Shown in pieces: positions 1,376 through 18,698 of a stretch of 26,690 nucleotides of DNA. The notes beneath the pieces are model-generated. The model saw nothing but the letters and a program-made list of their open reading frames with translations, searched no databases and was not told where the DNA came from. The DNA comes from Candidatus Doudnabacteria bacterium (GTDB lineage: Bacteria > Patescibacteriota > Doudnabacteria > UBA920 > 2-01-FULL-50-11), in assembly GCA_016205055.1 (NCBI GenBank), contig JACQJK010000008.1:1-26690 (forward strand), in the 5' to 3' direction. Numbering within the stretch: position 1 is the stretch's first letter; each line of letters begins with the position of its first letter. Both the position numbers and the translations under genes were made by a program.

Positions 1376-1855
1376 CTACTGCAAAACCGCTCGCACTGAT
1401 TTCGTTTGTAATTTTTCAACGGAAACTCCCAAGGCGTAAATCTCTTCGGCCTTCAACAATTCTTCCTCTATCCCCACGTGTGGTAAGGTTGCCAAATCAG
1501 AAACGCTGACCCATCTAAAATCAGTAAAATCCCGGCTAACCTTCACGACATCTGAACCCTCAATTTCGCACAAGTAGGAAAACGATTTCGAGGTCTGCCC
1601 GTCCGGCCTTAAGATTGACTTATCCTTTAAGAGCAGCTTTCCTGGTTTTAATTTTAACCCGGCCTCCTCCCAAACTTCTTTCGATAGAGCTTCATCGACT
1701 GTTTCGTTGCCTTCCATCTTTCCGCCTGGAAAAGTAAACATCCCCGGATAAACCTTTTCGCGGTCGTGGCGCTTCAGAACCAAGTATTTACGGTCTTTAC
1801 TCCTCACTACCGCCACTACGGTAACAATGTGCAATTTAGGATTCAGTTCACTCAT
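1376..1855 (-). CDS. Nudix hydrolase
   Basis: Nudix box GGKMEGNETVDEALSKEVWEEAGL (G-x5-E-x7-KE-x2-EE-x-G-L, with K in place of the usual R), preceded by LVLKR...YPGMFTFPGG. Confidence 0.9.
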   Translation of the reverse strand: MSELNPKLHIVTVVAVVRSKDRKYLVLKRHDREKVYPGMFTFPGGKMEGNETVDEALSKEVWEEAGLKLKPGKLLLKDKSILRPDGQTSKSFSYLCEIEGSDVVKVSRDFTDFRWVSVSDLATLPHVGIEEELLKAEEIYALGVSVEKLQTKSVRAVLQ

Positions 1856-1911: not shown

Positions 1912-3813
1912 CTATCCATACAAGGGCAAATCCTTTGTCAGAGATTCAACCAAGGACTTTCTGCCGAAAACAAGAACTCCCAAATATTCCACATCTTTTC
2001 TATTTTTATTCTTCGTTCGCTCAATCACTTTCTTATCGTCAGTGGTCGCGATCATCTCTTTGATAAATTCGCTTACCTCTAACCCGTCATGCTTGGCACT
2101 GTCAGAAAGTTTTTGAATTATTTGACTCGAATTTGCTGACTTAATCATGATGGCGTGTTGAATATTGAGCTTAATGCGCTTTCCGTCTTTTGTTCCTATT
2201 TCATCCTGATAAAGCAATTTTCGGCCTTCTCTTGCGCCAAAAGCCGCATTCAGGTGAGCAATAGTATTCAACTCCTCCCAGAATTTCATGCCGGCGCCTT
2301 TGTTGATCACCGCCACCGCGATTTTCGTGATTTTGGATTTTCCTTCTTTCGCTGATTCTTCCTTCATCGGCGGGAAAATTACCGTTTCCCGAATCGACTT
2401 GTCCATCAGCACGGCAAAAAGCCGCTCGGACATGCCAAAACCAACCGCCGGCGGCATGCCGTACTCGAGAGCTTCCACAAAATCCTCATCGAGCATCTGC
2501 GCCTCCCGATCACCGGCCGCGCGCAACTTCATTTGCTCTTCAAAACGTTTTCGCTGATCCAGCGGATCGTTCAACTCGGACCAACCGTTGCCCAGCTCGG
2601 TGCCGGCGGCCAGAATTTGAAATCTTAAAACTTTGCGCGGATTTTTAAGGTCGCTCTTGGAAAGAGGGGAAATTTCTAAAGGGTGGCCGACAAGAAAGCA
2701 TGGCTGAATGAGCTTTTCCCTGACCGTCTTTTTGAAAATCGCATCAATCAGCCGGCCTCGACCGAAAGTCTTATCATAGACAATAGACATCCTGTCGGCG
2801 TGTTTTTTCAAATCGTCAACGGTCAAATGACTATTTAGGTCAATACCGGTTTCCTTTTGCAAGACCGTGAAATAATCAACCTTAGCCCAGTCGCCTCCCC
2901 AATTAAGCTCGCGACCGGCAAAACTGGTTTTGAAAGAACCCGCGATGTTCCTGGCGACCAGTTTAAACATTTTTTCTGCCAAGGCCATCCCCTGTTCATG
3001 ATCAGCGTATGCCCAATAAAATTCCATGTCGTCATATTCCTGCAGGTGTTCGCGGTCAATGCCTTCGTTGCGGAACAGGCGTCCAATTTCAAACACTCGG
3101 TCAAAACCGCCGACCAATAAACGCTTCAAGGGAAGCTCCAGAGAAATCCGCAAATAAAAATCGCGATCAAGCGCGTTGTGGTGAGTTACGAACGGTTCGG
3201 CGTCAGCCCCTCCGGGTACGTTCTCCAAAACCGGAGTCTGGACTTCCAAAAATCCCTCGGCTGCCAAAAAGTTTCTAATCGTCTGCCAAAAAACATTTTT
3301 GCGTCGGAGCATTTCCCTCACTTCCGCATTGACAACCATATCCAAGTAGCGACGGCGCAGGCGCGTTTCCATGTCTTTCAAACCGTGAAATTTCTCCGGA
3401 AGCGCGCGCAAAGACTTTGCCAGCAAACTCAAGTCTTTGGCCAACAAGGTTTTCTCTCCGGTTTTCGTTTTAAACACACCTCCCGCAACCCCCAGAAAGT
3501 CGCCGGTGTCGAGGAGTTCAAGCAGTGCAAAGGATTTTTGGCCCAGCTCTTCGGCTTTGAACGCCACTTGAATTTTCCCGCTTTCGTCCTCCAGATCGCT
3601 AAAAATGATTTTTCCATGAGAACGCATCGCCCGCAGGCGCCCGACCAGCTTCATTTGCTTTTTCTGGCGCTCGTAATCCTCGAATTTTCCCAAAACCTCG
3701 CCGATCAAGTGCGTCCGTTGAGCTTTTGCCGGATAAGGATCAACTCCTTGCGCTTTTATTTTTTGCAGCTTTTGCAATCGCTCGGCAAGCAACTCTGTTT
3801 CTTTTTGAGTCAT
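1912..3813 (-). CDS. lysS: Lysyl-tRNA synthetase (class II) with an extra ~140 aa C-terminal DUF2000-like domain
   Basis: OB-fold anticodon domain; FLEVQTPVL, YLRISLELPLKRLLVGGFDRVFEIGRLFRNEG, EALEYGMPPAVGFG. The core ends at IRETVIFPPMK (~aa 484) but the frame continues to aa 633. Confidence 0.96.
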   Translation of the reverse strand: MTQKETELLAERLQKLQKIKAQGVDPYPAKAQRTHLIGEVLGKFEDYERQKKQMKLVGRLRAMRSHGKIIFSDLEDESGKIQVAFKAEELGQKSFALLELLDTGDFLGVAGGVFKTKTGEKTLLAKDLSLLAKSLRALPEKFHGLKDMETRLRRRYLDMVVNAEVREMLRRKNVFWQTIRNFLAAEGFLEVQTPVLENVPGGADAEPFVTHHNALDRDFYLRISLELPLKRLLVGGFDRVFEIGRLFRNEGIDREHLQEYDDMEFYWAYADHEQGMALAEKMFKLVARNIAGSFKTSFAGRELNWGGDWAKVDYFTVLQKETGIDLNSHLTVDDLKKHADRMSIVYDKTFGRGRLIDAIFKKTVREKLIQPCFLVGHPLEISPLSKSDLKNPRKVLRFQILAAGTELGNGWSELNDPLDQRKRFEEQMKLRAAGDREAQMLDEDFVEALEYGMPPAVGFGMSERLFAVLMDKSIRETVIFPPMKEESAKEGKSKITKIAVAVINKGAGMKFWEELNTIAHLNAAFGAREGRKLLYQDEIGTKDGKRIKLNIQHAIMIKSANSSQIIQKLSDSAKHDGLEVSEFIKEMIATTDDKKVIERTKNKNRKDVEYLGVLVFGRKSLVESLTKDLPLYG

Positions 3814-3866: not shown

Positions 3867-4328
3867 TTACGAGATTTCAGTAACTTCGTAGGTTTTTTGC
3901 CCGGCGGGAGTTTGAATAGATACCTTCTCGTTGACCTTAGCGCCCAGTAACGATCGGCCGACCAAGGATTCGTTGGAGATCCGGCCAGTGGAAGGGTTGG
4001 CCTCGCCAGAACCAACTATGGTGTAGGCCCTTAATTCCCCGTCAATTCTTACTTTTACGGTTGAGCCCACGGCAACAATATTCTTCGGATGCTGACCGCT
4101 GATCAATTCCGCATTCTTAACCATTTCCTCAAGCTGCATGATCCGTGCCTCCATCATCGCTTGTTCTTCCTTGGCTTGCGCATAATCCGCGTTTTCCGAA
4201 AGATCGCCATGAGCAGCCGCTTCCTGGATCCTTTCAATCACCTCCGGGCGTTTAACCTTTTCCAAAACCTCAAGTTCTTTTTTTAACTTCCCCAGACCTT
4301 CTTTAGTCAAAAGGTATTTTTGTGTCAT
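3867..4328 (-). CDS. greA: Transcription elongation factor GreA
   Basis: AAAHGDLSENADYAQAKEEQ motif and C-terminal ISNESLVGRSLLG. ATG at 4328 preferred over the TTG at 4334 in the ORF track. Confidence 0.97.
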   Translation of the reverse strand: MTQKYLLTKEGLGKLKKELEVLEKVKRPEVIERIQEAAAHGDLSENADYAQAKEEQAMMEARIMQLEEMVKNAELISGQHPKNIVAVGSTVKVRIDGELRAYTIVGSGEANPSTGRISNESLVGRSLLGAKVNEKVSIQTPAGQKTYEVTEIS

Positions 4329-4356
4329 CTCCAAGTTCTTATATGATAATATCGAA

Positions 4357-8574: not shown

Positions 8575-9633
8575 CTAGCGAGGTATCTTCTCCACCTCGG
8601 TTTGGATCAAGACCTCCCGCAAATTCTCCAAATCTTCCAATACCACTCCCGTACCCCGCACCACCGCGGTCAAGGGGTCGTCAGTGACGTGCACCGGGAT
8701 AAGAGTTTCTTTGGCGACCAGTAAATCCAATCCGCGCAATAACGACCCGCCGCCGGCAAGAGTGATCCCGCGGCTCATGATATCGGCTACCAGTTCCGGA
8801 GGGGTTTCTTCTACCGCTTCCTTGACCGTGTTAACGATTGTTCGCACCGATCGGCTTAAGGCCTCGCGAATCTGTTCGTCGGTGACCACCACCTCCTTGG
8901 GCAACCCGGTCACCATGTCACGGCCGCGCATGACGGCTTGCGCGCCTTCTTTCTGACGATAGGCCGAACCGATTTTAATTTTTACTTCCTCCGCCGTCCG
9001 CTCTCCCAGTAATAGATTGAACTCTTCCCGAGCGTACTGAATAATACTCTCGTTCATCTCGTCCCCGGCAACCCTAATACTCCTGGACACCACAACACCG
9101 CCTAGGGAAATGACGGCAATTTCGGTGGTGCCTCCGCCAATATCCACGATCATGCTGCCCGAGGGATCTTGCACCGGCAGGCGCGAACCGATCGCGGCGG
9201 CCATCGGCTCTTCAATCAAAAACGCCGCGCGAGCGCCGGCGTTGAGCGCTGCATCCTGAACCGCCCGCCGCTCCACGTCCGTTCCCCCGGACGGGATGCC
9301 CACGACCACTTGGGGTCGGGAAAAAAAATTTAGATTTCCCTGCTGAACCTTGGTAAAAAAATATTTCAACATCTGCTCGGTGATTTCAAAATCTGAAATT
9401 ACCCCGTCAACCAATGGTCGAATCGCGACGATATGCGCCGGCGTGCGGCCCACCATGCTTTTCGCGTCGTTGCCGATGGCTAAAATTTGCTTGGTCCTGG
9501 TATTCAAAGCCACCACCGAGGGTTCGTTGATAACTATGCCTTTCCCCGAAACGTAAACCAAAGTGTTCGCGGTTCCTAAATCGATGCCGATATCGTGAGA
9601 AAAATTTTTGAAAACCCGTTCGGATAATGACAT
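8575..9633 (-). CDS. mreB: Actin-like cell shape protein MreB
   Basis: DIGIDLGTANT, EPSVVA, IEEPMAAAIG, VDIGGGTTE, LAGGGSLLRGLD. First gene of mreBCD-mrdA; TAATG overlap with proS. Confidence 0.97.
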   Translation of the reverse strand: MSLSERVFKNFSHDIGIDLGTANTLVYVSGKGIVINEPSVVALNTRTKQILAIGNDAKSMVGRTPAHIVAIRPLVDGVISDFEITEQMLKYFFTKVQQGNLNFFSRPQVVVGIPSGGTDVERRAVQDAALNAGARAAFLIEEPMAAAIGSRLPVQDPSGSMIVDIGGGTTEIAVISLGGVVVSRSIRVAGDEMNESIIQYAREEFNLLLGERTAEEVKIKIGSAYRQKEGAQAVMRGRDMVTGLPKEVVVTDEQIREALSRSVRTIVNTVKEAVEETPPELVADIMSRGITLAGGGSLLRGLDLLVAKETLIPVHVTDDPLTAVVRGTGVVLEDLENLREVLIQTEVEKIPR

Positions 9634-10874
9634 TACAATTTACTTAAATAATTGCTAAGCTCCCGCTCTTTCTCTAGTTGCGTTTTCTGGCCTGCGCGCA
9701 ATTTGTACTCCACACTCTCCCGCTCCACAGTACGCGGGGAAACCACTAATCTAAGCGGAATCCCCAATAAGTCGCTATCGGCCAATTTTGTGCCCGGGGA
9801 AAGTTCGCGATCATCATATAGTACCTCGTGGCCCTGCTTCTGTAAAGCCCGCCAAATTTCCTCCGCAAATTTCCCGACCCGCTCTTGACCACCATCCAGG
9901 GAAACTAAATGAATAAAAAACGGGGCAACGATCTCGGGCCAAATTACTCCTTTCTCATCATGGAATTTCTCCACTAACACTCCCATAAGCCGGCTGATGC
10001 CGATTCCGTAGCAACCCATTATTACGATTTGTTTTTTCCCGGCCTTGTCGGTGAAAATCAAATCAAACGAGGAGGCATATTTGGGCTTGAGTTTGAAAAT
10101 GTTACCTACCTCCGAACCCCTGGAAGCTCGCCAGCTGTTTTTTTTGCAGCGGCTGCAGGTGGCTCGCTCCGAAAAAATTTCCTTATTTTTCCCCACTTCG
10201 CAATTCTTGCAAATATAAATTGTATCTTCTCCGGTTGGTATCTCGATTTGGAACTCATCGCTGAATTCGGAAAAAGTTCCTCCGGTCGCTTCTGTGCGAA
10301 TCGCGTCTAGTCCGATTCGCTTAAAAGTTTTCAGGTAAGCCGCGCTTGCCCTTTCGTAAAATTCATTCAAATCGGCCGCGTCGGCGTGAAAACTGTACAT
10401 ATCCTTCATCCGAAACTCCCGACCGCGCAAGAGCCCGGATTTTACGCGTGGTTCGTCGCGAAATTTAGTTTGGATCTGGTAAACTGCGAAAGGCAAATCT
10501 TTGTAGGAACTAATTATCGGACGCGCCATAGGTGTGACAACCTCTTCGTGACTGGGGCCAAGGGCATACTCGTGACCGTGCCGGGATTTGATTTTAAACA
10601 GCACGTCTAATCCGCTCCACCTTCCCGTGGTCACCCAACTTTCTTTCGGATGCAAGCTCGGCATGAAAATTTCCTGCCCGCCAATCGCGTTCATCTCTTG
10701 ACGCACTACGTTTTCAATCTTCTGCAAAACCCGCAATCCTAAAGGCAGATAAGAATAAACTCCCGCCATGACCTTTTGCACAAACCCCCCGCGTTCCAAT
10801 AGCCGGGCGTTTACCGACGGGTCGTCGGAAGGTGCGGTCTTGCTGGTTTTTCCGAACAGTTGCGATTGTCTCAT
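9633..10874 (-). CDS. proS: Prolyl-tRNA synthetase, compact form lacking the INS editing domain
   Basis: GVYSYLPLG, LGPSHEE, YQIQTKFRDEPRVKSGLLRGREFRMKDMYSFH, EVGNIFKL, MGCYGIGISR, anticodon-binding domain. 413 aa. Confidence 0.96.
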   Translation of the reverse strand: MRQSQLFGKTSKTAPSDDPSVNARLLERGGFVQKVMAGVYSYLPLGLRVLQKIENVVRQEMNAIGGQEIFMPSLHPKESWVTTGRWSGLDVLFKIKSRHGHEYALGPSHEEVVTPMARPIISSYKDLPFAVYQIQTKFRDEPRVKSGLLRGREFRMKDMYSFHADAADLNEFYERASAAYLKTFKRIGLDAIRTEATGGTFSEFSDEFQIEIPTGEDTIYICKNCEVGKNKEIFSERATCSRCKKNSWRASRGSEVGNIFKLKPKYASSFDLIFTDKAGKKQIVIMGCYGIGISRLMGVLVEKFHDEKGVIWPEIVAPFFIHLVSLDGGQERVGKFAEEIWRALQKQGHEVLYDDRELSPGTKLADSDLLGIPLRLVVSPRTVERESVEYKLRAGQKTQLEKERELSNYLSKL

Positions 10875-14754: not shown

Positions 14755-15837
14755 TCACTCTTCCAACACTTTCAAAGTTGCTTGCGCGGTTCGCGTCCAG
14801 GAGAATCTTTTTAAATTCTCGCGTCCAGATAAAATCAGTTTTTTTCTCAAGCTACGATCGCGCAAAAGCGTTGTTAACCCCTCCGCTATGCTCTCGGGGC
14901 TTTTTGGATCAACTAAATACGCGCCTAAACCCGCAATCTCTTTAGTTGCGCCGAAATCCGAGGTAAGGACCGGGCAACCGAAAAACTGCGCTTCCAGAAT
15001 CGGCAAGCCAAAGCCCTCATAGAATGAAGGGAAACCGAAAATCACCGCTCGCTGGTAAAGAAGTATTTTCTCCGCCTCGCTAATATAGCGCTTTATCTCA
15101 ACGGTTTTCCGCAAGCCGTTATTTTCTATAAAAGTTTTTATCTCCGCAAACCCGAAGCCGGGCTTTCCTGCCAACACCAGTTTCAAATCCGGGTGAGTCC
15201 GGCGCAGGAGCACTAAGGCCATTAACAAGCCAAGAATATTTTTCTTTTTTTCCAGTCGGCCCACAAAAAATACCGTCGGCTGAACCGCTACATCGCTCGT
15301 GTTGGGCGCTGTTGGCTGATCGTATTGCGGCGCTCCGTGCGGCACTACTCGAATTTTCTCGGGAGGTGTTGAGAAAAATGTAATTAGTTCCCGCTTCGTG
15401 AATTCTGAAGGACAAATAATTCGGTGGGCAAAGCGGGAGGCAAAGCTGACAGATAAGCGATGGTAGGATAAATCAAGAAACGAATACATGTCCGGGTAGC
15501 GCATAAAACCAACGTCGTGCACGGTAACCACTGTTTTTGCTCTGGAAAAAAACGGCAGAGCATGAGACGGTACAAACAACCGGTCAGGCGGTCTAGCAAA
15601 CGCCGCGGCGGAAAGCCGAGCTTGCGTCCAAAGTAAGCTTGGCGGCCAAGCCAGCACTAAATTTTCAAAGTTACCGGGGAGCTGACCAAGCTCGCCGGTC
15701 AACGGCTCGGACGAATAAAGCACGAATCCGTGGCTGGTGGGGAGTTTTTTCAACTCCTCAATTAAAAAATAACTGTACCATTCAGTACCGGTTTTTTGCA
15801 GCTTACCAGCTCGAGAGGCGTCAATGCCGATGATCAT
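14755..15837 (-). CDS. Glycosyltransferase family 4 (GT-B)
   Basis: IGIDAS start, VTVHD, FFVGRLEKKKN, SFYEGFGLPILEAQFFGCPVLTS (E-x7-E). Confidence 0.92.
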   Translation of the reverse strand: MIIGIDASRAGKLQKTGTEWYSYFLIEELKKLPTSHGFVLYSSEPLTGELGQLPGNFENLVLAWPPSLLWTQARLSAAAFARPPDRLFVPSHALPFFSRAKTVVTVHDVGFMRYPDMYSFLDLSYHRLSVSFASRFAHRIICPSEFTKRELITFFSTPPEKIRVVPHGAPQYDQPTAPNTSDVAVQPTVFFVGRLEKKKNILGLLMALVLLRRTHPDLKLVLAGKPGFGFAEIKTFIENNGLRKTVEIKRYISEAEKILLYQRAVIFGFPSFYEGFGLPILEAQFFGCPVLTSDFGATKEIAGLGAYLVDPKSPESIAEGLTTLLRDRSLRKKLILSGRENLKRFSWTRTAQATLKVLEE

Positions 15838-16384
15838 TTTGCTTTGCGCTTGTCAAATCTGATTTTTTTAAGTGTCGATACTCTGCTGGATAATCTATGT
15901 CAAATCTTTCACACAAAGCAGAAATGGCTTTTACATACTTGGCTCCATGTTTGTTTAGCCAAGGGGCCATAAATTTAACCATGTATTCTGCCGAGATGCA
16001 CTTTACTGGACGGCCATCGAGAGTTCCTTTTCCGATTAGTGAAGCCGCAGGATACATCGACTTTTTTTCAAGGGGACCGTAAATTCCATTTCCCTTATCA
16101 TCAAAAACGATAATGTGAAAATCAATTTCGTGGCCTTTATCATCCCCTAACACAAAACTCCATGGGCCCGTATCATCTCGCGGAACATCTTTATACCCTT
16201 GCGACTCTAATAACTCACATACTTTGGATACATCCTTCTCTTGAATAGCAATATCTAAGTCCTCATGGGGGCGCGTTTGCTCCCCTAAAAGCGCATCAAC
16301 AGCCCAGCCGCCATCCAGCCAAATTACGATGCCCAAGTTTTGTAATTGAGTGTAAAAATCCACTACATCTGCAGATGACATCAT
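15821..16384 (-). CDS. Nucleotidyltransferase of the LinA/LnuA-ANT(2'')-like family; substrate unknown
   Basis: WLDGGWAVDALLGEQTRPHEDLDI (GG...DxD), EIDFH, GTLDGRPVKCISAE. Noticeably AT-richer than its neighbours. Confidence 0.8.
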   Translation of the reverse strand: MMSSADVVDFYTQLQNLGIVIWLDGGWAVDALLGEQTRPHEDLDIAIQEKDVSKVCELLESQGYKDVPRDDTGPWSFVLGDDKGHEIDFHIIVFDDKGNGIYGPLEKKSMYPAASLIGKGTLDGRPVKCISAEYMVKFMAPWLNKHGAKYVKAISALCERFDIDYPAEYRHLKKSDLTSAKQNDHRH

Positions 16385-16440: not shown

Positions 16441-17448
16441 TTATCTTGTCGAGATCATAGATAGCTTGTAAGTGTCCAGATGCTCGAGCGCCACGCCAGT
16501 TCCTTTGGCAACGCAAAGAACCGGCTCGTCGGCCACGTAAGCCGGCACACCCGTAGATTGGGCGAGCAGTCGGTCCAAGTTCCGCAACAAGGCCGTTCCA
16601 CCCGTTAAAACCATGCCCTTATCGATGATGTCAGAAGACAGTTCGGGCGGGGTTTCCTGCAGTACGTGTCGAACGGCGCCGATGATCTCGGTTAACTGGT
16701 CCTGAATGGCTTCCACCACTTCGTTGGTGAACACTTGAATCGTACGGGGTAATCCTTGAATCACGTCCCGCCCTCGAATTTCCAATTTTTCTTCCTTTTC
16801 CACGGGCAAGGCGGAACCAATCCGAATCTTCACCTCCTCCGCGGTTTGCTCGCCAATGGCTAGCCCGTGTTTTTTTCTGATATAATCCGCAATGGCAACG
16901 TCCATCTTGCTGCCCGCCACGCGAACCGACGTGGAAACTACAATCCCTCCCAAAGAAATTACGCTCACATCCGTGGTTCCCCCGCCTAAGTCAACCACCA
17001 AGTTACCCGAAGCGGTGCCTATATCAATGCCCGCCCCGATTGCCGCCGCGATAGTTTCCTTGATCACGTAAGCCGCTCTGGCCCCGGCGGACTGCGCGGC
17101 GTCAACCACCGCCCGCCGTTCGGTAGAAGTTATCCCTCCGGGAACGGAAATCATCACCTCGGGACGCAACAAACGGATCCGCCCGGCGGCTTTATTGATA
17201 AAATACCGCAACATTGCTTCCGTCACCCGGTAATCGGCAATCACTCCGTCCTTCATCGGTTGTTGGGCAATGATGGTTTCCGGAGTGCGCCCCAGCATTT
17301 CTTTCGCCTCTGTCCCCACGGCTAAAATCCGGTTGTCGGCGATAGAAATCGCCACCACCGTCGGCTCGTTTATAATGATCCCGCGCTTGGGGACGAATAC
17401 CAAAGTGTTGGCCGTCCCCAAGTCAATCCCCAATCGTTTTAGCCACAT
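16441..17448 (-). CDS. mreB: Second MreB/Mbl-like actin paralogue
   Basis: LGIDLGTANT, EPTVVA, VDLGGGTTD, LTGGTALLRNLD. Stand-alone, downstream of murA. ATG at 17448 preferred over the TTG at 17454. Confidence 0.95.
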   Translation of the reverse strand: MWLKRLGIDLGTANTLVFVPKRGIIINEPTVVAISIADNRILAVGTEAKEMLGRTPETIIAQQPMKDGVIADYRVTEAMLRYFINKAAGRIRLLRPEVMISVPGGITSTERRAVVDAAQSAGARAAYVIKETIAAAIGAGIDIGTASGNLVVDLGGGTTDVSVISLGGIVVSTSVRVAGSKMDVAIADYIRKKHGLAIGEQTAEEVKIRIGSALPVEKEEKLEIRGRDVIQGLPRTIQVFTNEVVEAIQDQLTEIIGAVRHVLQETPPELSSDIIDKGMVLTGGTALLRNLDRLLAQSTGVPAYVADEPVLCVAKGTGVALEHLDTYKLSMISTR

Positions 17449-17450
17449 GC

Positions 17451-18698
17451 TCAAACTTGCCTTGTTATCTTGGCTCCCAACTTAGACAGACGTTGCTCTA
17501 TCTTTTCATAACCCCGATCGATATGATGAATGTCCCGCACTACGCTTTTCCCCCGGGCAACGATGGCGGCAATCAGCAAGGTCATGCCGGCCCGGATGTC
17601 GGAACTCCTGATATTTCCGCTTTTTAAGCCGACCGGCCCGGTTATTTCGGCCCGATGAGTATCTATCAATCTAACACGCGCCCCCAGTTTTTTCAACTCG
17701 GCAAGATATCCCAAGCGCCCCTCCCAAATCCAATCGTGAACCACGCTTGTGCCGCGGCATTGCGTGGCAAAAACGCCGAAAGGCGGTTGTAAGTCGGTTG
17801 CTAAATTGGGATACAGCCCGGTCCTGATCGCGCCCGCGCGGTACGAACTTTTTGGCTTCAAAATCGTAAGCGAATCCTTTGCTAAAGAGAAGCGAACCCC
17901 CATTTCGGACATCTTGTGGTAAACCGCATCCATTTGACTGTGATCGACATTCGTGATTGTAATTTGGCTCTTCGTTGCCGCGGCCAGTAACGCAAACGTT
18001 CCGGCTTCAATCATATCCGGTATGACGGAACTGGTTGCCCCGTGCAGATTTTTCACTCCCCGGATAACGAGCGTATGAGTGCCGATCCCGGAAATTCTTG
18101 CGCCCATTTTTTTCAAAAACTTGCATAAACTTAAAACGTGCGGTTCCAATGCGGCCAGTTTGATGACTGTCGTTCCCGTGGCCAAAACTCCCGCCAAAAT
18201 CATATTCTCCGTGCCCGTGACCGAGGACTCGGCAAAAACTTCCGCTCCGTTCAGCCGTTTGGCTTTCAATCTCAAGCGGGACTGTCCGTTGGCGACAGCG
18301 CCCATCTGGCTAAACGCCCGCAAGTGAACGTCAATCGGACGCGCCCCAATTAAATCTCCTCCGGGAAAAGACAAATCTACCTGCCGACTTCGCCCCAGTA
18401 ACGCGCCTAACAGGACGACCGAAGCGCGCATGGAGCCGACCAAGACCGGATCGGGCCGAAACGTCCGCAAATTTTCAGCCGCAACTTCGACCTTGCCCGG
18501 GCGCGTTTTTACGCTACAACCGAGATCAGTCAAAATTTTCAAAAAATTTCGCACGTCCACAATATCGGGAACGTCGGTAATGACGCAACGGTGGCGCGTC
18601 AGCAAAGTCGCCGCCAGCATGGGCAAAACTGCGTTTTTTGAACCAGAAACGCGAATCCGGCCCGCCAACGGTCTGCCGCCTTCAACAATGAATTTCAT
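17451..18698 (-). CDS. murA: UDP-N-acetylglucosamine 1-carboxyvinyltransferase, Asp115 variant
   Basis: SGSKNAVLP, MRASV, FPGGDLIGARPIDVH, DMIEAGT, YPNLATDLQP, DIRAG, IDRGYE. Confidence 0.96.
   Translation of the reverse strand: MKFIVEGGRPLAGRIRVSGSKNAVLPMLAATLLTRHRCVITDVPDIVDVRNFLKILTDLGCSVKTRPGKVEVAAENLRTFRPDPVLVGSMRASVVLLGALLGRSRQVDLSFPGGDLIGARPIDVHLRAFSQMGAVANGQSRLRLKAKRLNGAEVFAESSVTGTENMILAGVLATGTTVIKLAALEPHVLSLCKFLKKMGARISGIGTHTLVIRGVKNLHGATSSVIPDMIEAGTFALLAAATKSQITITNVDHSQMDAVYHKMSEMGVRFSLAKDSLTILKPKSSYRAGAIRTGLYPNLATDLQPPFGVFATQCRGTSVVHDWIWEGRLGYLAELKKLGARVRLIDTHRAEITGPVGLKSGNIRSSDIRAGMTLLIAAIVARGKSVVRDIHHIDRGYEKIEQRLSKLGAKITRQV

What the first reader, a model, noticed from the sequence alone, without database searches (positions are those of the whole stretch)
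1912..2331. Class II LysRS fused to a C-terminal DUF2000-like (Pth2-fold) domain
Seen in sequence: after the normal LysRS end (IFPPMK, aa 484) and a charged linker, ~140 more residues follow in frame: KIAVAVINKG...EELNTIAHLNAAFG...TKDGKRIKLNIQHAIMIK...EFIKEM...EYLGVLVFGRKSLVESLTKDLPLY. Recognition from memory: this pattern (N-x-x-A-H-L, D-G, F-x-x-E-M, G-x-x-x-F-G-x-K-x-x-V-x-x-L-T-K-x-L-P-L) matches DUF2000, reported to have a peptidyl-tRNA hydrolase II-like fold. Inference: an uncharacterised tRNA deacylase or editing domain attached to a synthetase, which would give a functional clue for DUF2000. It could act in cis or in trans; the ProRS in this window lacks its own editing domain.
Basis: partly seen in the sequence, partly recalled or inferred. 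Interest (0 to 1): 0.62.

Follow-up and report, generated by a model that had tools for sequence, protein, structure and literature searches.

The report
Lysyl-tRNA synthetase with DUF2000 tail
The only lysine-charging enzyme of this tiny-genome (Doudnabacteria-like) bacterium carries a real, strongly conserved extra end-domain of unknown function, built like a peptidyl-tRNA hydrolase. It may be a clean-up module for wrongly loaded lysine tRNA, but nobody has tested that.

Summary
Window 1912-3813 (-) is one uninterrupted 633-aa ORF: a full class II LysRS (aa 1-484), a 10-16-aa flexible linker, and a full-length Pfam DUF2000 domain (aa 499-632).

- **Fold:** the modelled domain (pLDDT 89.5) matches Atu0240/2GAX (Z 15.8) and archaeal/human Pth2 (Z 13.7). 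The next-best match scores Z 4.4.
- **Not an assembly artefact:** more than 300 proteins, named as Patescibacteria or DPANN archaea where named, share the architecture.
- **Found before:** this scan has already reported the fusion on other DNA (34 earlier notes). I found no paper on it.

New here:
- The tail is more conserved than the synthetase core (63% vs 53% identity, in 43 of 43 comparisons).
- It is absent from all 30 same-order relatives, whose LysRS sits in the same greA-lysS-serS locus.
- Fusion or fission of DUF2000 and LysRS happened at least 3 times.
- Some relatives carry known editing modules (AlaX-type, B3/4) or an HD domain on the same LysRS.
- The genome keeps canonical Pth1, and DPANN carriers keep Pth2, so the tail is not the general peptidyl-tRNA hydrolase.
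- By profile alignment the Pth2 catalytic Lys/Asp are not retained. The family instead keeps its own Asn516/His520/Met587/Thr626.

Best reading (about 0.4): a tethered hydrolase that strips wrong acyl groups from tRNA-Lys. The function is untested.

The parts
1912..3813 (-). lysS-DUF2000 gene, 633 codons plus TAG stop (1912-1914)
   Evidence: ORF list and translation. NCBIfam lysine--tRNA ligase PRK00484 566 bits (cut-off 468) and TIGR00499 502 bits (cut-off 428) over aa 7-486. It is the only LysRS-type gene found in the genome.
3421..3651 (-). OB-fold anticodon-binding domain, aa 55-131
   Evidence: PF01336, 53 bits.
2365..3375 (-). class II catalytic core, aa 147-483
   Evidence: PF00152, 232 bits, profile 1-307 of 308. 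The genome search gives the same coordinates.
2320..2361 (-). charged flexible linker, aa 485-498 (EESAKEGKSKITKI)
   Evidence: pLDDT is below 50 at aa 488-494 in the full-length model. The linker is 10-16 aa and rich in K/E/S/T/G in 42 of 44 fused homologues.
1915..2319 (-). DUF2000 (PF09391) domain with Pth2-like alpha/beta fold, aa 499-633
   Evidence: Pfam 69-73 bits. AF2 model pLDDT 89.5. Foldseek 2gax E 7e-10 and six Pth2 entries at E 2e-5 to 4e-4. VIA-align Z 15.8 (2gax) and 13.7 (1wn2), next best 4.4.
2254..2280 (-). helix-1 stripe W512...N516...H520; N and H are kept in 99% of 78 fused and free DUF2000 domains
   Evidence: H520 aligns with the invariant His of the Pth2 'AQxxHA' helix in hhalign.
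2155..2211 (-). beta-hairpin aa 535-553 carrying the conserved KDG (D543); a possible mobile lid
   Evidence: pLDDT is below 50 in the full-length model and 74-88 in the domain-only model. D543 is kept in 82% of the family.
2035..2067 (-). motif F583-x-x-E586-M587-x-x-T590-T591-x-D593, at the place of the Pth2 'DAGxT' catalytic loop
   Evidence: M587 is kept in 99%, F583 in 86% and D593 in 85% of the family. hhalign places K585/E586 opposite the Pth2 DAG Asp.
1936..1938 (-). Thr626 in the last helix (LTK motif), kept in 97% of the family
3867..4334 (-). greA, upstream neighbour; part of the conserved greA-lysS-(x)-serS synteny
   Evidence: Pfam. The synteny is seen in 30 fused loci and in most same-order unfused loci.

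Best explanation
This is the housekeeping class II lysyl-tRNA synthetase of a Doudnabacteria-type Patescibacterium. Through a short flexible linker it carries a DUF2000 domain with the peptidyl-tRNA-hydrolase-2 fold. Shown: the architecture, the fold, strong purifying selection on the tail, and the recurrent, essentially LysRS-specific fusion. Inferred: the tail is a hydrolase for the ester bond at the 3' end of tRNA-Lys. Tethered next to the synthetic site, it would remove acyl groups that should not be there, while Lys-tRNA-Lys is spared. Candidate substrates are non-cognate amino acids that class II LysRS is known to transfer (Thr, Ser, Ala, Arg, Met and others) or lysine analogues. That would give this LysRS a post-transfer clean-up step that textbook class II LysRS lacks. 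Catalysis would rest on the family's own conserved polar residues (Asn516, His520, Thr626, with Asp543/Asp593 and Met587), not on the Pth2 Lys/Asp pair.
For: - **Fold:** it is the fold of an enzyme that cuts the acyl-tRNA ester. Foldseek gives prob 1.0 to six Pth2 structures, and VIA-align gives Z 13.7 to 1wn2 with 110 of 118 residues aligned.
- **Where conservation sits:** the family-wide conserved residues lie in the two segments that align with the Pth2 active-site segments, helix 1 and the loop after strand 4.
- **Selection:** the tail is more conserved than the essential synthetase core, 63% vs 53% identity to the window in 43 of 43 homologues, and 60.7% vs 50.2% mean pairwise identity.
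- **Partner specificity:** apart from one desaturase fusion, every multi-domain DUF2000 protein I scanned has the class II D/K/N-type synthetase core as partner. NCBIfam confirms LysRS for the window, P0003 and P0173. The fused/free state changes at least 9 times on the domain tree, with at least 3 changes forced by strongly supported branches.
- **Co-fused modules:** some of these LysRS chains also carry bona fide aminoacyl-tRNA editing modules, AlaX-type PF01411/PF07973 in P0087 and P0140 and B3/4 in P0173, or an HD hydrolase.
- **Not the bulk Pth:** Pth1 is present in this genome, and canonical Pth2 is present in 4 of 5 DPANN genomes that carry the fusion.
- **Not a plain electrostatic RNA-binding tail:** the median pI of the domain is 7.0.
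[quoted passage not shown] Free ProXp-ST1/2 factors deacylate Ser/Thr-tRNA-Lys in other bacteria (PMC11295145). The need for such a step is therefore real.
- **A second lysine link:** in one CPR lineage a free DUF2000 gene sits 13-15 nt downstream of the lysine exporter gene lysO.
Against: - No DUF2000 protein has a measured activity, and I found no paper on the family.
- PF01981 does not hit the tail, and the profile-profile match to Pth2 is weak (E 0.002, probability 13%).
- In that alignment the Pth2 'GK' Lys falls on Glu513 and the 'DAG' Asp on Lys585/Glu586, so the known catalytic pair is not retained.
- The solved member Atu0240 has Phe where the family has His.
- The tail is dispensable over evolutionary time. 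None of 30 same-order relatives has it, and only 13 of 201 sampled genomes of the phylum carry the fused form.
- Free DUF2000 genes have no conserved tRNA-related neighbourhood.
- I could not read model coordinates, so the clustering of conserved residues in a pocket is inferred from sequence and secondary structure only.
Confidence: 0.4

Rival explanations
1. A dedicated peptidyl-/N-acyl-tRNA-Lys hydrolase. The tail frees tRNA-Lys from dropped-off peptidyl-tRNA-Lys (or N-blocked Lys-tRNA-Lys) and hands it straight to the synthetase for recharging.
For: The Pth2 fold is that of a peptidyl-tRNA hydrolase. From memory (Heurgue-Hamard et al., EMBO J 1996, not retrieved here), loss of Pth in E. 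coli kills through starvation for Lys-tRNA-Lys, so tRNA-Lys is the tRNA most sensitive to sequestration. The fusion partner in every synthetase fusion examined is the LysRS-type class II core.
Against: Canonical Pth1 (this genome) or Pth2 (DPANN carriers) is kept alongside. The Pth2 catalytic residues are not retained in the profile alignment. The co-fused partners are editing domains for aminoacyl-tRNA, not peptidyl-tRNA enzymes.
Confidence: 0.17
2. A non-catalytic module. A degenerate Pth2 fold is kept as a binding domain for the tRNA acceptor end, for EF-Tu or the ribosome, or for dimer or partner contacts. It would improve charging or channelling in reduced-genome cells.
For: The Pth2 catalytic Lys/Asp are not conserved at the aligned positions. 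Appended tRNA-binding domains are common on synthetases (established knowledge). The tail can be lost without loss of the gene.
Against: The near-invariant residues are polar (Asn, His, Thr) and shared by free and fused forms, which is more typical of a catalytic or ligand site. The median pI of 7.0 gives no general basic surface. Free-standing DUF2000 proteins exist in many bacteria, with Pseudomonadota the commonest named phylum.
Confidence: 0.17
3. A lysine-linked small-molecule enzyme or sensor rather than a tRNA enzyme. The domain would bind or hydrolyse a lysine derivative, for example an aminoacyl-adenylate side product, a lactam from pre-transfer editing, or a lysine analogue such as thialysine. 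Alternatively it would sense lysine.
For: Two separate links point to lysine: the LysRS fusions and the lysO-DUF2000 gene pair in one CPR lineage. A FA_desaturase-DUF2000 fusion (P0225) shows that the domain can work outside a tRNA context.
Against: The lysO link is confined to one lineage: two genomes of one family, plus two metagenome contigs that match them at 100% and 78% identity. The only characterised enzymes with this fold act on tRNA esters. Co-fusion with AlaX and B3/4 modules points to acylated tRNA.
Confidence: 0.14
4. An assembly or gene-calling artefact that joins two separate genes.
For: None found. Several 'free' 150-aa DUF2000 entries in databases start at the Met of the LysRS FPxMK motif. 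That shows gene callers sometimes split the gene, not that they join it.
Against: The frame is continuous with no stop. More than 300 homologues share the architecture and 73 species genomes encode the tail. The linker length is conserved.
Confidence: 0.01

Closest known systems
DUF2000 family (Pfam PF09391); solved member Atu0240 of Agrobacterium tumefaciens, PDB 2GAX
   Same: Full-length profile match of 69-73 bits. The structure matches at Z 15.8 with 135 residues aligned. The family residues Asn, His, Met, Gly and Thr are present.
   Different: Atu0240 is a free 135-aa protein of unknown function. It has only 16-18% identity to the tail and carries Phe at the family's His position. Here the domain belongs to a distinct long-branch clade (support 100) that is essentially always fused to LysRS.
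Peptidyl-tRNA hydrolase 2 (Pth2/PTRH2/Bit1; PF01981; PDB 1WN2, 1XTY, 1Q7S, 2ZV3, 3ERJ, 1RLK)
   Same: Same alpha/beta fold (Z 13.7; Foldseek prob 1.0, TM 0.55-0.73). The helix-1 His and the C-terminal 'T-K-x-L-x-L' end are shared in the profile alignment.
   Different: There is no PF01981 hit, and identity is 10-15%. The tail has a 12-residue Lys-rich helix insertion (aa 593-604) and a longer hairpin. The Pth2 'GK' Lys and 'DAG' Asp are not conserved at the aligned positions. It coexists with the canonical Pth.
Appended or free aminoacyl-tRNA editing modules (AlaX/tRNA_SAD, PheRS B3/4, INS/YbaK/ProXp-ST1/2, Dtd)
   Same: It is a small hydrolase-like domain attached to, or working with, a synthetase. 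In relatives it occurs on the same LysRS chains as AlaX-type and B3/4 modules. ProXp-ST1/2 already show that mischarged tRNA-Lys needs clearing (PMC11295145).
   Different: The fold is unrelated to every known editing domain. No class II LysRS editing domain has been described (PMC4173786). Activity is unproven.
LysX (LysRS fused to the MprF-type lysyl-phosphatidylglycerol synthase) and other multi-domain LysRS
   Same: A LysRS core joined to a second domain that is expected to use or act on Lys-tRNA-Lys. The LysX model scores 464 bits, below its cut-off of 742, and matches through the LysRS part only.
   Different: There is no MprF domain here. The appended domain is C-terminal, soluble, and has a hydrolase fold rather than a transferase fold.

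Membership tests
Bacterial class II lysyl-tRNA synthetase (TIGR00499 / PRK00484) | Full-length match above the curated cut-off, with OB anticodon-binding domain plus class II core | tested here: met
   PRK00484 566 bits (cut-off 468) and TIGR00499 502 bits (cut-off 428) over aa 7-486. PF01336 and PF00152 are both present.
Bacterial class II lysyl-tRNA synthetase (TIGR00499 / PRK00484) | Acts as the cell's housekeeping LysRS (sole copy, ancestral locus) | tested here: met
   It is the only LysRS-type hit in the 790-kb, 89.8%-complete genome; the second hit (C36) matches P0001 at only 25% identity over part of its length, so it is another class II D/K/N synthetase. It sits in the greA-lysS-(x)-serS synteny shared with unfused relatives. 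Its core groups with unfused Doudnabacteria LysRS.
DUF2000 (PF09391) | Profile match above the gathering score over the whole domain | tested here: met
   69 bits in the whole protein and 73 bits for the tail alone, cut-off 25, profile positions 4-132 of 133. The genome search gives 72.8 bits.
DUF2000 (PF09391) | Fold of the solved member 2GAX | tested here: met
   Foldseek E 7e-10, TM 0.74/0.78. VIA-align Z 15.8, rmsd 3.1, 135 residues aligned.
DUF2000 (PF09391) | Family-wide conserved residues (Asn/His in helix 1, Met after strand 4, Gly, Thr in the last helix) | tested here: met
   N516, H520, M587, G617 and T626 are present; these positions are kept in 95-99% of 78 domains.
Peptidyl-tRNA hydrolase 2 (PF01981) | Sequence-profile membership | tested here: not met
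   No PF01981 hit at E<=1 for the protein or for the tail. hhalign of DUF2000 against Pth2 gives E 0.002 and probability 13%.
Peptidyl-tRNA hydrolase 2 (PF01981) | Pth2 alpha/beta fold | tested here: met
   Six Pth2 entries at Foldseek prob 1.0. 1wn2 at Z 13.7 with 110 of 118 residues aligned.
Peptidyl-tRNA hydrolase 2 (PF01981) | Catalytic Lys ('GK') and Asp ('DAGxT'); K18/D86 of S. solfataricus Pth2, recalled from memory (Fromant et al. 2005, not retrieved) | tested here: inconclusive
   hhalign places Glu513 opposite the Lys and Lys585/Glu586 opposite the Asp. The alignment has low confidence and I could not superpose coordinates. As aligned, the pair is not retained.
Peptidyl-tRNA hydrolase 2 (PF01981) | Hydrolysis of N-blocked aminoacyl-tRNA | not testable with these tools
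   Needs an enzyme assay.
Aminoacyl-tRNA editing (post-transfer) domains, as a functional class | Selective deacylation of mischarged tRNA while sparing the cognate product | not testable with these tools
   Only circumstantial evidence: co-fusion with AlaX-type and B3/4 modules in relatives and the known lack of such a step in class II LysRS (PMC4173786).

The most novel reading that the evidence does not exclude
DUF2000 is a previously unrecognised structural class of aminoacyl-tRNA proofreading domain, derived from the Pth2 fold. It would supply the post-transfer editing step that class II LysRS is thought to lack. It would act in cis in many Patescibacteria and DPANN archaea, and in trans as the free DUF2000 proteins of Pseudomonadota and other bacteria.
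Probability: 0.28. Interest if true: 0.8.

Novelty: new variant of a known kind. Interest (0 to 1): 0.55.

Why it matters
Class II LysRS is the textbook case of a synthetase that mischarges its tRNA and has no post-transfer editing domain. A hydrolase-fold domain fused to LysRS at least 3 separate times, and more conserved than the synthetase core, makes two questions directly testable:
- What do DUF2000 proteins do? The family is uncharacterised, occurs in many bacteria, and has had a solved structure since 2006.
- Do organisms with minimal genomes proofread tRNA-Lys?

If the answer is yes, DUF2000 adds a new fold to the short list of editing domains and shows that the Pth2 fold was re-used for quality control. 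If the answer is no, the domain is still a strongly selected LysRS accessory that needs an explanation. The architecture is already visible in public domain tables, and this scan has reported it many times. The interest therefore lies in the family and its function, not in this particular locus.

Tried and rejected
- **Stand-in for the general peptidyl-tRNA hydrolase:** rejected. Pth1 is present in this genome, and Pth2 is present in 4 of 5 DPANN carriers.
- **Stand-in for D-aminoacyl-tRNA deacylase:** no support. Dtd was found in only 20 of 201 sampled genomes of the phylum. It was in 0 of 13 genomes with the fused form, against about 1.3 expected by chance. All four family-f22 genomes with free DUF2000 also have Dtd.
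- **Trans-editor for the INS-less ProRS of this window:** unlikely. A free YbaK/ProX-type gene exists on contig C56, and the only synthetase partner found for the domain is the LysRS-type class II core.
- **lysO-DUF2000 adjacency as a general rule:** not general. It appears in one lineage only. Other free DUF2000 genes have varied neighbours: CutA1, the small subunit of ribonucleotide reductase, Nudix, an EEP nuclease.
- **Nudix gene downstream of lysS as a conserved partner (the Ap4A idea):** not conserved, seen in 1 of 73 fused loci.
- **Riboswitch or other Rfam element near lysS or lysO:** none.
- **Internal start at Met483 making a free domain:** there is no Shine-Dalgarno-like sequence upstream. 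The database 'free' forms that start at MKP are probably split gene calls.
- **Searches that gave nothing useful:**
  - Sequence search of the PDB with the tail alone gave only 2gax at E 0.05; a profile gave 5e-15.
  - Paper searches for DUF2000, PF09391, Atu0240 and LysRS-Pth fusions found nothing relevant.
  - The ESM Atlas returned only DUF2000 clusters.
  - Model coordinates were not readable, so no residue-level superposition on Pth2 was possible.
Full report
**What is there.**
Window 1912-3813 (minus strand) is one uninterrupted ORF of 633 codons ending in TAG.
- Pfam finds the OB anticodon-binding domain (aa 55-131), the class II catalytic core (aa 147-483, 232 bits) and DUF2000/PF09391 at aa 500-632.
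- DUF2000 scores 69 bits in the whole protein and 73 bits (E 2e-20) for the tail alone. The cut-off is 25 and the match covers profile positions 4-132 of 133.
- NCBIfam calls aa 7-486 lysine--tRNA ligase above both curated cut-offs.
- The surrounding window is ordinary Patescibacteria housekeeping DNA: serS, a Nudix gene, greA, folD, PBP2, mreBCD, an INS-less proS, rseP, frr, holB, murA and recJ.

**It is not an artefact.**
- A search with the tail alone returned 301 proteins at E<=0.001. All 120 listed carry DUF2000 joined to the class II synthetase core, most as PF01336+PF00152+PF09391 chains of about 630-650 aa. Those with a source name are called Patescibacteria or DPANN archaea.
- Seventy-three species genomes encode the tail, among them Doudnabacteria, Saccharibacteria, Paceibacterota, Gracilibacteria, Absconditabacterales, Peregrinibacteria and Nanoarchaeia/Woesearchaeota. 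Where I compared both parts, it is in frame with a LysRS core.
- This scan has reported the same fusion on other DNA 34 times.
- I found no paper that mentions DUF2000, PF09391 or Atu0240, or that describes a LysRS-Pth fusion.

**Fold.**
- With a 40-sequence alignment the tail folds confidently (pLDDT 89.5, pTM 0.82).
- Foldseek ranks 2GAX (Atu0240, the DUF2000 structure) first at E 7e-10 and TM 0.74/0.78. Next come six independent Pth2 structures (1Q7S, 2ZV3, 3ERJ, 1WN2, 1XTY, 1RLK) at probability 1.0.
- A Foldseek-independent scan of 48,161 chains gives Z 15.8 for 2GAX and Z 13.7 for 1WN2. The third hit scores Z 4.4.
- The full-length model (pLDDT 87.9, pTM 0.74) has a disordered linker at aa 488-494 and a low-confidence hairpin at aa 535-553 that carries the conserved KDG.
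- I read this as a flexibly tethered domain with a possibly mobile loop.

**Is it a Pth2?**
- By sequence it is not. PF01981 does not hit.
- I took five Pth2 genes from DPANN genomes that also carry the fusion and compared profiles. hhalign aligns the two families end to end, but weakly (E 0.002, probability 13%).
- In that alignment His520 matches the invariant His of the Pth2 AQxxHA helix.
- The Pth2 'GK' Lys falls on Glu513, and the 'DAGxT' Asp falls on Lys585/Glu586.
- From memory, these are the catalytic K18 and D86 of S. solfataricus Pth2. I could not retrieve that paper.
- I could not read model coordinates, so a shift of one residue (Glu586 in place of the Asp) is not excluded.
- Across 78 fused and free DUF2000 domains the near-invariant positions are Asn516 and His520 (99%), Met587 (99%), Thr626 (97%), Gly617 (95%) and Gly612 (90%). 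Asp593, Phe583 and Asp543 are kept in 82-86%.
- These residues lie in the two segments that correspond to the Pth2 active-site segments. The same face of the fold therefore seems to be functional, but with a different set of residues.
- Atu0240 itself has Phe at the His position.

**Selection and evolution (new here).**
- Among 43 fused homologues the tail is always more similar to the window than the synthetase core is: median 63% vs 53%, and mean pairwise 60.7% vs 50.2%.
- The linker is 10-16 residues in 42 of 44 sequences.
- Even so, the tail is patchy.
  - In an even sample of 201 genomes of the phylum, DUF2000 occurs in 22. Thirteen of these have the fused form and ten have a free copy; one genome has both.
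  - In 30 genomes of the window's own order, every LysRS stops at about residue 487.
- The closest LysRS cores in the 5.8-billion-protein collection are unfused Doudnabacteria enzymes at 60-67% identity.
- On a core tree the window sits among those unfused enzymes, next to one fused form with an HD tail (P0003). It lies apart from a large all-fused clade. The fused state needs at least 4 changes on that tree.
- The gene lies in the same greA-lysS-(x)-serS synteny as the unfused relatives.
- I conclude that the synthetase was inherited vertically and that the tail is gained or lost at the native locus.
- On a tree of the domain itself, fused and free forms are interleaved.
  - I first removed nine doubtful 'free' entries that start at the Met of the LysRS FPxMK motif or are truncated.
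  - The state still changes 9 times, with at least 3 changes forced by strongly supported branches.
- Ten further distant representatives (27-45% identity in the tail) are all fusions of DUF2000 with the same OB plus class II core architecture.
- The DUF2000-LysRS link is therefore recurrent and partner-specific.

**Context that bears on function.**
- The genome (790 kb, 89.8% complete) keeps canonical Pth1 and has no PF01981. Its only DUF2000 and its only LysRS are this gene. No Dtd was found, and a free YbaK/ProX-type editing protein is present.
- Four of five DPANN carriers keep canonical Pth2. The tail is therefore not the general peptidyl-tRNA hydrolase.
- Absence of Dtd is uninformative, because 90% of the sampled genomes of the phylum lack it anyway.
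- Relatives add further modules to the same chain:
  - AlaX-type editing domains (P0087, P0140);
  - a PheRS-type B3/4 editing domain between the core and DUF2000 (P0173);
  - an HDIG hydrolase (P0003 and others).
- Free DUF2000 genes in CPR genomes have varied neighbours. In one lineage the gene lies 13-15 nt downstream of the lysine exporter gene lysO. That is a second, weaker link to lysine.
- One FA_desaturase-DUF2000 fusion exists (P0225).

**Mechanism.**
- Shown: the architecture, the fold, the selection on the tail, the recurrent fusion, and coexistence with the canonical Pth.
- Inferred (about 0.4): the tail hydrolyses the acyl ester on tRNA-Lys when the acyl group is wrong, and so acts as a tethered post-transfer clean-up step.
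- The need for such a step is documented.
  - Free ProXp-ST1/2 factors deacylate Ser/Thr-tRNA-Lys in other bacteria (PMC11295145).
- Rivals:
  - a dedicated peptidyl- or N-acyl-tRNA-Lys recycler (0.17);
  - a non-catalytic binding module (0.17);
  - a lysine-linked small-molecule enzyme or sensor (0.14);
  - an artefact (0.01).
- All of these can be separated by deacylation assays with the isolated tail and point mutants.

**Verdict.**
The ProRS hint is not supported. The feature is a new variant of a known kind: a synthetase with an appended hydrolase-type module of a fold not yet known in editing. It is widespread, already visible in domain databases, seen repeatedly by this scan, and apparently unstudied.

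Noticed in passing
L106:5999-7045 (-) and L107:2302-3346 (+); also L109, L110: In one CPR family a free 141-aa DUF2000 gene lies 13-15 nt downstream of a LysO lysine-exporter gene (PF03956, 179 bits), apparently as an operon. The pairing is not seen in relatives at 55% identity or less.
   Followed up: partly
window 9633-10874 (-): The ProRS is only 413 aa and has no INS editing domain. The genome encodes a separate 145-aa YbaK/ProX-type tRNA_edit protein on contig C56 (L084).
   Followed up: partly
window 1376-1855 (-): A MutT/NudI-like Nudix hydrolase gene sits between lysS-DUF2000 and serS. Its position next to an Ap4A-producing synthetase is suggestive, but the adjacency recurs in only 1 of 73 fused loci.
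   Followed up: yes
window 8575-9633 (-) and 16441-17454 (-): There are two MreB paralogues (475 and 445 bits) within 8 kb, plus mreC and a PBP2-type transpeptidase. This is a full rod-shape set in a 0.8-Mb genome.
   Followed up: no
window 15821-16384 (-): A 187-aa protein matches the aminoglycoside-2''-adenylyltransferase family (PF10706, 96 bits) and lies next to a GT4 glycosyltransferase. It is probably a generic nucleotidyltransferase.
   Followed up: no
P0173, P0087, P0140, P0003, P0325 (database relatives): LysRS in small-genome lineages acts as a hub for extra hydrolase modules. Examples are LysRS-B3/4-DUF2000 (906 aa), LysRS-DUF2000-AlaX, LysRS-DUF2000-HDIG, and LysRS-HD without DUF2000.
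   Followed up: partly
P0225 (568 aa) and P0233 (533 aa): There is a fatty-acid desaturase with a C-terminal full DUF2000 domain (110 bits). There is also a trigger factor-HD protein with a partial DUF2000-like stretch. Both show uses of the domain outside LysRS.
   Followed up: no
P0123, P0126, P0128, P0130, P0139 (database proteins): These 'stand-alone' DUF2000 proteins of about 150 aa begin with MKP/MKK, at what appears to be the Met of the conserved LysRS C-terminal FPxMK motif. They are probably split or truncated calls of fused genes, which would inflate counts of free forms.
   Followed up: partly
L010, L016, L021, L032 (DPANN genomes): Archaeal (Nanoarchaeia/Woesearchaeota) genomes carry the bacterial-type class II LysRS-DUF2000 alongside canonical Pth2. 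This suggests transfer of the fused gene between CPR bacteria and DPANN archaea.
   Followed up: partly
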